64,000 bases of DNA from positions 138,881 through 202,880 of the IMG/VR virus record IMGVR_UViG_3300009185_000001; one strand, written 5' to 3'. This document shows, piece after piece, positions 39,716 through 42,150 of the stretch. Position numbers and translations under genes: made by a program. The notes beneath the pieces are model-generated. The model saw nothing but the letters and a program-made list of their open reading frames with translations. It was not told the DNA's origin and ran no database searches. This stretch comes from a virus. Its lineage: Duplodnaviria > Caudoviricetes. Within the stretch, counting starts at the first letter, position 1. Each line of letters starts with the position of its first letter.

Positions 39716-40075
39716 ATGCCAAGAGGTAGACCAAGAAAAAACATTTCTACAAAGAATCTAATTGATAAAAGTATTGTGGGTGTACGCAAGAAACGTACCA
39801 AGTCTATTGTTCCAAGTATTGTGAAAAGACCAGTGGAAGAATTGACTACTAAAGAACGCGAAGAAAGAGAAAAATGGTTGGATAGCTTCTTGCCCAAGAT
39901 TGATCTCAATAAGAAAACTGTTGTCCTTGATTTGAATAAGAATGTAGAAGCATGTAAAGAACATACCAAAGGTGCTTGCGTTCGCCCTGACATATATCTA
40001 GACTATGGATGTAATCACTGCTCGCTATTTGAGAATTGTGCATGTCGCCTAAAAAAAGTTAAAAAAAATTATTGA
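39716..40075 (+). CDS. Basic protein with Cys cluster
   Basis: MPRGRPRK (AT-hook-like) and C..C...C..C...C.C tail. Confidence 0.6.
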   Translation: MPRGRPRKNISTKNLIDKSIVGVRKKRTKSIVPSIVKRPVEELTTKEREEREKWLDSFLPKIDLNKKTVVLDLNKNVEACKEHTKGACVRPDIYLDYGCNHCSLFENCACRLKKVKKNY

Positions 40076-40100
40076 CTTTACCGGAAATTTGAAATATAGT
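40072..40100 (+). promoter_or_regulatory. sigma70-type promoter driving the RNA island
   Basis: TTGACT-ttaccggaaatttgaaa(17)-TATAGT. Confidence 0.7.
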
Positions 40101-40136: not shown

Positions 40137-40262
40137 AAATAATAAGAGTTTCTGTGGTGGTTACTCTTATTATTTCGGAAGTCCTACCTTCTGTGGTGGT
40201 AGGTAGGACTTCCTTAAATTTGTGAGTTGGTTCCCGATGAGCCAATGGGACTGGGAATACTC
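40137..40262 (+). ncRNA. Candidate sRNA: two perfect 13-bp hairpins with an identical loop motif plus possible pseudoknot
   Basis: AAATAATAAGAGT/ACTCTTATTATTT and GGAAGTCCTACCT/AGGTAGGACTTCC, both carrying TTCTGTGGTGGT. Confidence 0.6.
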
Positions 40263-40634
40263 GGTCGAAACCAAAATCGGAAATTGATATTTGACATTTT
40301 AATTTTTTGGTAGATAGAGTAGTAATACCTATCCCTGTGGACTCGAAAGAGGAGTGATATCTGAAAAGAAGCGTTTCGAGAGTATTCGCACTCACTTACC
40401 AAATAATATTTTAAACCCGCCATGCCTCTGCTTGCAAGAGTAGTTTCTGAAGGCCAAGGCAACTAAGCAAGTCATGCATAATTTGGCGGGTGTTTTTATC
40501 AAGCGCAGATGCTATTTAAAAAGCTCTACCGCGACAGATGACAATGCAATGTTTCCGGAAACAACATTTAATCTGTAGGGAACTTCTCCTTAATAATCAA
40601 AAAAGAATGAGAAGTCTTGGTAATAAATTTAAAT

Positions 40635-40721
40635 GGGTTACTATACCGTTAAAGAGGCGGTCCAGACTGTAAATCTGGCGTGTTCTGCACTCACTAGGAG
40701 CATTACCTAGGTAGCCCACCA
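40635..40721 (+). tRNA. tRNA-Tyr(GUA), type II, non-canonical T loop
   Basis: GGGTTAC/GTAGCCC acceptor, CCAGA-CTGTAAA-TCTGG, variable arm, CTAGG-AGCATTA-CCTAG, encoded ACCA. Confidence 0.8.
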
Positions 40722-41135
40722 TTTTAATATAGAAAGAATAGATAGTGTTAGTAATAAATTTTGACTGGGATGTTGGTCTAGAAAATCATCATCTAAGGAG
40801 TGGAACTGGACGTGGAGAACTGGTAATTAGTAGGGACACAATTCATATAAGCCCTACATCCTATTTATAGGTACGGAGATGACCGTGAATTGCGTTTCAC
40901 AGGATAGAGAAATCTATAACCCCTTTAGCTTTAAAAAGCACACCAGTTTATTTTTGATAAGTCGGACGGGGAATGTGTGCTGTGCATTCTTAAAAAGCTC
41001 ACCGTTGCAGACGTATCACCAGACCCGATTAGGCAGGGGGTAACAAGTAACCTTCGTCCAACGTGTTAAAAACACGGTAGCCAATGAAGAGCTTTCTGGA
41101 ATTGATATTTAAAATTATATTGTAAATAGTTTATA

Positions 41136-41208
41136 TGCGGGTTACAGTTCTGGCGAACTGAGGGGTTTCATAAGCCTCTTTAGGTGGATTCGATTTCCAC
41201 ACCCGCAA
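41136..41208 (+). tRNA. tRNA-Met/Ile2 (CAU)
   Basis: TGCGGGT/ACCCGCA acceptor, loop TTCATAA, GTGGA-TTCGATT-TCCAC; no encoded CCA. Confidence 0.85.
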
Positions 41209-41216
41209 TTTTTAAT

Positions 41217-41349
41217 TCCTCATTAGACGAATTGGTAAAGTCACGGGACTGTGGGAGAAGCAGGTTAGCGTAATATGAGTTCGATTCTCATAACTCCAAG
41301 TCTAATCCCGCGCAGCAATGCATTCTTCGTTCAAGTCGAAGATGAGGAG
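41217..41349 (+). tRNA. tRNA-Ser(GCU)-like with ~50-nt insertion in the anticodon
   Basis: TCCTCAT/ATGAGGA acceptor, G73, D arm GAC/GTC, CGGGA/TCCCG anticodon stem, GCA-GCAA-TGC variable arm, CTTCG-TTCAAGT-CGAAG. Confidence 0.75.
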
Positions 41350-41513: not shown

Positions 41514-41856
41514 GGTCGAGTGGTGGAATGGCAGACACAACGGACTTAGAGAAATTTGAGCTTTGATTGGGAAACCTTTCAAATGTAACTTGTCAAATTC
41601 GGTGAAGGGTTTAAACTCCTAATACCGAGCCAAGCATCGAAAGATGAAGGTGTAGAGACTTGACGGCAAGAACCTAAAGCGAAAGCAATGGTTAAGGTAA
41701 AGTCCAGACTACAAACAGATTGAGAAAAGTAAATCCCGAAAGGATTGAACAGAGCGGTAAATACGCTGACTGACGAATCTGGTAACGAAAGTTATAGTAG
41801 TAAGAAAATCCGTTGCCAGTAATGGCGTGAGGATTCGAGTTCCTCCTCGACTACCA
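41514..41856 (+). tRNA. tRNA-Leu(UAA) split by a group I intron
   Basis: Exons 41514-41547 (…ACGGACTT) and 41805-41856 (AAAATCCGT…CTCGACTACCA) join to give a type II cloverleaf with loop CUUAAAA. Confidence 0.92.
41548..41804 (+). ncRNA. Group I intron (trnL-UAA / IC3-type position), 257 nt, no ORF
   Basis: P AAATTCGGTGAA, Q AATACCGAGCCAAG, R GGTGTAGAGACT, S AAGGTAAAGTCC; follows U34; ends in G; ACTAC/GTAGT P9.0. Confidence 0.92.
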
Positions 41857-42065: not shown

Positions 42066-42150
42066 GCACTTGTAACTCAACGCTCTTCTAAAGCGTCCTT
42101 TAACGAGTAATTGGATATAAGGTCTGTTGGTTCGAATCCAACCAAGTGCG
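42066..42150 (+). tRNA. Atypical tRNA-Arg(UCU)-like RNA with rearranged D/anticodon region
   Basis: Perfect acceptor GCACTTG/CAAGTGC, T arm GTTGG-TTCGAAT-CCAAC and anticodon arm ACGCT-CTTCTAA-AGCGT; D elements out of order. Confidence 0.7.

What the first reader, a model, noticed from the sequence alone, without database searches (positions are those of the whole stretch)
40763..40948. ~185-nt multi-hairpin RNA between tRNA-Tyr and tRNA-Met
Seen: ACTGG/CCAGT closure enclosing GTAGGG/CCCTAC, CCTA/TAGG, CGG/CCG, GTGAA/TTCAC, ATAGA-GAAA-TCTAT and GCTTT/AAAGC. Established: large ornate ncRNAs such as GOLLD and ROOL are typically found beside tRNA clusters in phages. Inference: this, possibly together with the next element, is such an RNA or a new class. 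I cannot assign it by eye.
Basis: partly seen in the sequence, partly recalled or inferred. Interest (0 to 1): 0.6.

Follow-up and report, generated by a model that had tools for sequence, protein, structure and literature searches.

The report
Remodelled phage mimic of ribosomal RNA
Among its tRNA genes this uncultured T4-like phage encodes a 184-base RNA whose two ends fold like the piece of 23S ribosomal RNA that binds protein uL11 and meets translation factors, but in this phage lineage the two loops that factors touch have been rebuilt; I found no description of this RNA family, and its function is untested.

Summary
The element is real, and its boundaries are right (40764-40947), but it is not GOLLD or ROOL. 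The sequence alone folds no better than shuffles (z -0.6); comparison with relatives settles it. Its ends reproduce the 23S rRNA GTPase-associated centre (E. coli 1051-1108) as a self-closed unit. A 122-nt helical insert and a UUUR linker sit between U1090 and G1091. I recovered 59 distinct phage sequences with this layout (inserts 25-365 nt, mostly beside tRNA genes, strongly covarying). Sisters with the same insert match E. coli at 44/58 core positions. This copy belongs to an 11-sequence sub-lineage that lost G1071/C1072 (kept in 47/47 others) and replaced the A1095 loop, yet kept the three-way junction and most of the uL11-contact face. It is still more conserved than neighbouring proteins. 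Best guess (0.45): a stable RNA that binds host uL11 off the ribosome, with the factor-facing tip altered. The downstream element is a separate RNA. No Rfam family or open-access paper describes the family. Expression and binding are untested.

The parts
40764..40947 (+). Whole RNA: self-closed mimic of the 23S rRNA GTPase-associated centre with a 122-nt insert
   Evidence: Family parse; boundaries from modular gain and loss; single copy in the genome
40764..40769 (+). 5' strand of the H42-like closing stem (1051-1055) and G1056, facing A1103
   Evidence: Pairs with 40943-40947; family pairs 1049-1054 covary, MI 0.9-1.2, 0/2000 permutations
40770..40792 (+). H43 equivalent (1057-1081); loop two bases shorter, G1071/C1072 absent, C1064-G1074 changed to U-A; this copy also has G1063-U1075 and a C1065/A1073 mismatch
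40793..40801 (+). C1082-UAA-G1086 turn and G1087-A1088-G1089-U1090
   Evidence: 1082/1086 covaries U-A (31) / C-G (13) in the family; 1084-85 and 1087-90 invariant (partly selected by the search patterns)
40802..40923 (+). Insert domain between U1090 and G1091: short closing helix (GG/CC), inner helix 40817-28 with 40888-97 holding three hairpins (40830-57, 40860-71, 40872-87), then hairpin 40904-17
   Evidence: RNAalifold and pair counts (99.3% of cells paired, 6 pairs with two-sided change over the whole RNA); found only in this sub-lineage and its intact sisters
40924..40927 (+). UUUR linker that follows the insert in every member
   Evidence: UUUG 41, UUUA 5, UCUG 1 among 47 intact members; UUUA in all 11 of this lineage
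40928..40939 (+). Top of H44 (G1091-C1100, C1092-G1099) with the 6-nt GUAAUA-type loop replaced by 8 nt that can form two more pairs and a UAAA loop
   Evidence: U-A in 5, U-G in 6
40940..40947 (+). 3' strand: A1101, C1102, A1103 and the H42 partner strand
   Evidence: A1101 is universal in the family and was found in only 17 stretches of real rRNA in GTDB with the pattern used
40635..40721 (+). Upstream tRNA-Tyr(GTA), non-canonical elbow (context)
   Evidence: ARAGORN at lowered threshold, flagged possible pseudogene
40956..41100 (+). Separate conserved non-coding RNA, not part of this one (context)
   Evidence: Occurs independently in at least nine loci; no Rfam hit
40291..40320 (+). Nearest upstream sigma-70-like promoter (another at 40072-40100); likely start of a polycistronic tRNA/ncRNA transcript (inference)
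   Evidence: count of sites not clearly above chance (9 against 5.4 +/- 1.9)

Best explanation
Identity (about 0.95, shown by comparison): a free-standing phage RNA whose ends form a self-closed copy of the H42-H43-H44 junction of 23S rRNA, carrying a helical expansion between U1090 and G1091. This copy is a remodelled sub-type. Mechanism (inferred, not shown): (1) it is co-transcribed with the tRNA cluster and trimmed at its U-rich flanks to a stable ~185-nt RNA; (2) it folds the three-way junction using U1060-A1088, C1082-G1086 and the UAA turn; (3) it binds the C-terminal domain of host uL11 off the ribosome, acting as a sponge or scaffold that alters how many ribosomes carry uL11 or how uL11-dependent factors such as RelA act during infection; (4) in this lineage the two loop tips that meet factors and thiostrepton in rRNA (the 1067 and 1095 loops) and the G1071/C1072 triples that staple them were given up together, so the RNA keeps the protein-binding face but no longer imitates the factor-docking surface.
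For: 59 distinct phage sequences share the layout. Closing stem, H43 pairs, 1082-1086 and the insert's closing helix covary. Sister L096 core is 44/58 identical to E. coli 1051-1108, 0/1000 shuffles, and Rfam's LSU model matches its whole span (E 0.018). A model built only from this lineage and its sisters finds distant members at E 1e-11 to 2e-3. Of 17 nucleotides listed as the L11-CTD interface (PMC1802607), 12 equal E. coli here; 1076 and 1082 are family variants, and 1065 and 1075 are rRNA-like in the other 10 lineage members. The RNA is 84-92% identical to relatives whose shared proteins have medians of 56-74% amino-acid identity, with compensatory changes inside the remodelled group. The phage encodes no uL11, uL10, bL12 or RelA/SpoT domain, so a partner would be a host protein. 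37 of 58 members lie within 500 nt of a tRNA or tmRNA gene on the same strand.
Against: uL11 binding needs the tertiary fold (PMC6239185), and the lost G1071/C1072 contacts are part of it (PMC2952862), so this variant may not bind uL11. Nearest-neighbour energies favour closures by two internal ACTGG copies by 6-8 kcal/mol over the family fold (tertiary contacts are not scored). The window copy alone is only borderline similar to 23S (30-56 of 1000 shuffles). The 11 remodelled sequences probably reflect one event, and their tree is unresolved. Conservation in the core is inflated by pattern-based retrieval.
Confidence: 0.45

Rival explanations
1. Scaffold for cargo: the rRNA-derived junction is only a stable fold that closes and presents the insert, and the insert does the work. 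This lineage could therefore drop the rRNA-specific tips.
For: The insert is nearly invariant here, including a 16-nt loop with a 7-nt complement (CAAUUCA/UGAAUUG) elsewhere in the insert. Function evidently survives loss of the tips. Some members carry a second insert in H43.
Against: Inserts of different members are unrelated and as short as 25 nt, while 47 members keep the full uL11/factor surface.
Confidence: 0.2
2. Decoy for something that attacks or reads the ribosomal GTPase centre (an anti-phage ribonuclease or modifying toxin, RelA, or a translational GTPase). The rebuilt loops are a change of bait or an escape form.
For: Intact members keep both loops and the stapling bases. They sit among tRNA and tmRNA genes, which phages use to offset attack on translation (own knowledge).
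Against: This copy lacks precisely the loops such factors contact. No sarcin-ricin loop motif is present in its insert.
Confidence: 0.15
3. Relic: a decaying copy of the family that has lost its function.
For: Two otherwise invariant bases are lost. The window copy has extra weakenings (C1065/A1073, G1063-U1075, 2-bp insert closure). Close phages L081 and L083 lack the RNA. L231 shows a similar deletion with no recognisable 3' block.
Against: The remodelled form is shared by at least 11 sequences from divergent phages, is better conserved than their proteins, and keeps pairing through two-sided changes. Recent horizontal spread could mimic part of this.
Confidence: 0.08
4. The insert is an intron removed to give a contiguous ~60-nt rRNA-like RNA.
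For: Fixed insertion point after a U, usually ending in G. The same cluster holds a group I intron and an interrupted tRNA at 41217-41349.
Against: The last base is A in this lineage and in 5 of 47 others. Inserts go down to 25 nt and carry no group I core. No insert-free copy turned up among 50,697 phage records: the contiguous matches are annotated 23S genes or small unannotated records, and the one full phage record I checked is real 23S. A1101 looks like an adaptation to the new junction.
Confidence: 0.07
5. GOLLD/ROOL-type large ornate RNA together with its neighbours, or chance hairpins.
For: Location in a tRNA cluster; z-score unremarkable.
Against: No Rfam match; neighbours assort independently; covarying homologs exist.
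Confidence: 0.02

Closest known systems
GTPase-associated centre of 23S rRNA (H42 top, H43, H44; E. coli 1051-1108; the 58-60-nt uL11/thiostrepton fragment)
   Same: Three-way junction order, G1055-C1104, R1056/A1103, H43 stem, U1060/A1088, 1082/1086 covariation, UAA turn, G1087-C1102, G1091-C1100, C1092-G1099.
   Different: Free-standing and self-closed; 122-nt insert plus UUUR linker at 1090/1091; A1101; in this copy no G1071/C1072 and a rebuilt 1095 loop; no kink-turn 42.
rplJL leader (L10_leader), an mRNA mimic of the L10(L12)4 site
   Same: Imitates the same rRNA region and keeps an unpaired UAA (PMC4538822, PMC3616713).
   Different: The leader is cis-acting, upstream of rplJ and needs a kink-turn. 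This RNA has none, lies among tRNA genes and copies the uL11 side.
GOLLD and ROOL RNAs
   Same: Phage-encoded, near tRNA islands, function unknown (PMC12286853).
   Different: Many GOLLD members exceed 800 nt and ROOL has multiple pseudoknots; no model match; no rRNA-derived core described for them in the passages read.
Small stable non-tRNA RNAs of phage tRNA clusters (T4 species 1 and 2; phage YrlA Y RNAs) - own knowledge
   Same: Size class, position and probable co-processing with tRNAs.
   Different: No Rfam match to any such family; Y RNAs imitate tRNA, this imitates rRNA.

Membership tests
GOLLD / ROOL | Match to the Rfam covariance model | tested here: not met
   No hit at gathering score or E<=10
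GOLLD / ROOL | Single RNA of several hundred nt | tested here: not met
   184 nt; neighbours assort independently
RNase P RNA, tmRNA, 6S, SRP, Y RNA | Match to the Rfam model or ARAGORN call | tested here: not met
Phage GTPase-centre mimic family (undescribed; this scan) | 5' block like 23S 1055-1090 and 3' block like 1091-1104, closed by its own stem | tested here: met
Phage GTPase-centre mimic family (undescribed; this scan) | Helical insert starting G after U1090, ending C, followed by UUUR | tested here: met
   122 nt, GG/CC closure, UUUA
Phage GTPase-centre mimic family (undescribed; this scan) | G1071, C1072 and a 6-nt GU-type H44 loop | tested here: not met
   47/47 intact members have them; 0/11 of this lineage
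23S rRNA GTPase-associated centre | Junction core: U1060/A1088, 1082/1086, A1084-A1085, G1087-C1102 | tested here: met
23S rRNA GTPase-associated centre | H43-H44 triples through G1071 and C1072 | tested here: not met
   Bases absent; role from PMC2952862
23S rRNA GTPase-associated centre | Thiostrepton/factor surface formed by the A1067 and A1095 loops | tested here: not met
   A1067 kept in a shorter loop; 1095 loop replaced
23S rRNA GTPase-associated centre | Binds uL11 | not testable with these tools
   12 of 17 interface bases equal E. coli; binding not measured
23S rRNA gene or fragment (contamination) | Flanking rRNA sequence | tested here: not met
   Insert and flanks show no significant rRNA similarity; complete phage genome with Gp23
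L10 leader | Kink-turn below the UAA loop | tested here: not met
   No GA on the outer strands; loose precondition met by 6 of 59 members
L10 leader | Upstream of rplJ | tested here: not met
   No L10 gene in the genome
Group I intron (the insert) | Catalytic core and terminal G | tested here: not met
   No Rfam hit; ends in A; no core motifs
Sarcin-ricin loop mimic (the insert) | AGUA-C-GNRA-G-GA motif | tested here: not met
   No match within 2 mismatches; the look-alike varies at the key A

The most novel reading that the evidence does not exclude
Phages encode a class of trans-acting RNAs that imitate a functional centre of the ribosome to titrate or redirect host uL11 and its dependent factors. 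This lineage is a natural separation-of-function allele that keeps the protein-binding junction and has rebuilt the factor-facing loops for a different partner.
Probability: 0.35. Interest if true: 0.88.

Novelty: categorically new. Interest (0 to 1): 0.7.

Why it matters
Mimicry of rRNA is known from cis-acting leaders of ribosomal-protein mRNAs. I found no description of a free-standing viral RNA gene that copies a ribosomal functional centre. The family is widespread and unannotated in cultured phages (Pseudomonas pf16, Aeromonas 4_4572, Serratia BF, Xanthomonas XacN1), so it can be tested now. This copy adds a natural experiment: same insert, intact tips in L090/L096/L102/L104 and rebuilt tips here. 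Comparing them separates uL11 binding, factor docking and insert function. The paired loss of the 1071/1072 bases and the 1095 loop also suggests that intact members really form the rRNA tertiary fold. The novelty class refers to the family and rests on Rfam 15 and an open-access library only.

Tried and rejected
Rfam at gathering score and E<=10: nothing on the element. BLAST of the window region against cultured phages: no homolog. A 16-nt hairpin pattern gave only chance hits. One long RNA closed by UCUAGAAA/UUUCUGGA with the next element (an MFE): rejected by independent assortment. Sarcin-ricin or 16S mimicry in the insert: rejected. tRNA-like reading (ARAGORN tRNA-Val over L094/L105): a long-intron artefact. 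A trans-pairing patch for cleaved host 23S: unlikely, because the closing stem varies freely and pairs with itself. TTAAAAAGCWC three times in the window (0.26 expected): the 40516 copy is not conserved in relatives and the 40931 copy often reads AAAAGGC, so I do not treat it as a shared motif. Tree of inserts: unresolved. Nine literature searches on the family and related terms found no description (among them).

Full report
Setting. The window is part of a complete 202,880-nt, 32% GC phage genome with direct terminal repeats and a T4-type Gp23 capsid gene. The stretch lies in a non-coding tract on the + strand, after a divergent tRNA-Tyr (40635-40721) and before a second RNA and tRNA-Met (41136-41208).

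Observation. The single sequence is not unusual: z -0.62, and 10 helices against 7.3 +/- 1.3 in shuffles. Rfam finds nothing on it, GOLLD and ROOL included. The case therefore rests on homologs.

Homologs and boundaries. Pattern scans of IMG/VR found close copies. L096 and L102 carry this element followed directly by a tRNA. Nine other loci carry the downstream element (about 40956-41100) without it. Close phages found through a neighbouring protein lack the element, so it is a module that comes and goes.

What it is. Four sisters with the same middle part (L090, L096, L102, L104) have a complete H43 loop at the 5' end; the three that are full length (L090, L096, L102) also have an rRNA-like H44 loop at the 3' end. 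With the middle removed, L096 is 44/58 identical to E. coli 1051-1108, and no shuffle of 1000 reaches its score. Its only BLAST hits in 5,426 E. coli genomes are 23S genes (weak, E 2), and Rfam's bacterial LSU model matches its whole span at E 0.018. The window copy alone gives the same register but only borderline significance.

The family. Scans with the 5' block and, separately, the 3' block gave 59 distinct sequences with one layout: a closing stem, 23S-like 1055-1090, an insert of 25-365 nt that opens with G and closes with C, a UUUR linker, 23S-like 1091-1104, and the closing strand. Among 47 intact members, pairs 1049-1054 with 1105-1110 covary (MI 0.9-1.2), as do 1058-1080, 1062-1076, 1082-1086 (U-A 31, C-G 13) and insert pairs 2-4 (MI 0.9-1.4); none of 2000 permutations reached these values. 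Relatedness was not corrected for, and the patterns inflate conservation inside the blocks. 37 of 58 lie within 500 nt of a tRNA or tmRNA gene, all on the same strand. Members occur unannotated in cultured phages pf16, 4_4572, BF and XacN1. Several members have a second insert in H43 near 1077 but keep the H43 loop. A covariance model built only from this lineage and its sisters retrieves distant members at E 1e-11 to 2e-3 and finds one copy in the window.

What is special here. The window and ten other sequences form a remodelled group. G1071 and C1072, present in 47 of 47 intact members, are deleted. C1064-G1074 has become U-A. The 6-nt H44 loop is replaced by 8 nt that can add two pairs under a UAAA loop. 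In rRNA, G1071 and C1072 staple H43 to H44 (PMC2952862), and the A1067 and A1095 loops form the thiostrepton pocket (PMC1802607). A scan for 5' blocks with a shortened H43 returned only this group and one unrelated sequence pair, L231/L232, with the same two-base loss and no recognisable 3' block. The junction is intact: G1056/A1103, U1060/A1088, C1082/G1086, the UAA turn, G1087-C1102, U1090-A1101. Twelve of the 17 listed uL11-CTD interface bases equal E. coli; 1076 and 1082 are family variants; 1064, 1065 and 1075 are real departures, the last two unique to this copy. The remodelled RNA is still constrained: 84-92% identity to relatives (most figures include the downstream RNA) whose shared proteins have medians of 56-74%, and 99.3% of cells pair in the proposed structure with six two-sided changes (related sequences can beat these shuffles).

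The insert. It is shared only by this group and its intact sisters. MFE and RNAalifold agree on an inner helix holding three hairpins, plus a GNRA-capped hairpin. GTAGGG/CCCTAC and ATAGA/TCTAT have compensatory support. A 7-bp pseudoknot from the 16-nt loop is possible but invariant, so undecided. The insert has no sarcin-ricin motif and no rRNA similarity.

How it probably works. Shown: identity, layout, constraint, absence of phage uL11, uL10, bL12 or RelA genes. Inferred: co-transcription from upstream promoters, trimming to a stable RNA, and binding of host uL11 through the retained face, as a sponge or scaffold, without the factor-docking tip (0.45). L10(L12)4 binding is less likely, because it needs a kink-turn (PMC4538822, PMC3616713) that is absent. 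The main doubt is that uL11 binding needs the tertiary fold (PMC6239185), which this variant may have loosened; energy models also prefer rival closures by 6-8 kcal/mol. Rivals: scaffold for the insert (0.2), decoy for a ribosome-targeting factor (0.15), relic (0.08), intron (0.07), GOLLD/ROOL or chance (0.02). Expression could not be checked.

Comparison and novelty. It works like the rRNA GTPase centre but is not an rRNA fragment, an L10 leader, GOLLD, ROOL or a group I intron. Rfam 15 and the searchable literature hold no description; subscription journals were not searched. This scan has noted the family on other DNA 42 times; a word search for a degenerate form found no note. I class the family as categorically new on present evidence and this copy as its remodelled sub-type. 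Interest 0.7.

Noticed in passing
window 40956-41100: Separate conserved non-coding RNA with no Rfam hit; occurs without the GTPase-centre mimic in at least nine loci and directly precedes tmRNA in many relatives.
   Followed up: partly
window 40225-40306 and 40412-40633: Further conserved non-coding modules shared with related phages at 72-95% identity; no Rfam family at gathering score.
   Followed up: no
window 41538-41724 and beyond: Group I intron in tRNA-Leu(UAA). The segment 41706-41778 also occurs in L081 (6437-6496) and L090, apparently free-standing in L081.
   Followed up: no
window 41217-41349: tRNA with a ~50-nt insert in the anticodon loop; L083 has the uninterrupted gene.
   Followed up: no
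window 42066-42150: Atypical tRNA-Arg(UCU)-like gene with an abnormal D arm.
   Followed up: no
window 40137-40213: Two perfect hairpins with the same loop sequence.
   Followed up: no
L231:2573-2776 (-), L232: Independent family-like 5' block with the same two-base loss at 1071-1072 and no recognisable 3' block, in a 209-kb contig.
   Followed up: partly
L172, L186, L192, L227: Family members with a second helical insert in H43 near position 1077 while the H43 loop stays intact.
   Followed up: partly
L142:4452-4608, L145, L175, L222: Inserts that share an AACUGGUAA motif with this window's insert although otherwise unalignable.
   Followed up: no
L081:6520-6710 and L083:5480-5640: Other unannotated structured-looking RNAs occupy this cluster position in close phages.
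   Followed up: no
L250 (MZ092003.1, about 83670-84510): The Paenibacillus phage Pd_22F record holds about 850 nt of real 23S rRNA, probably host contamination.
   Followed up: partly
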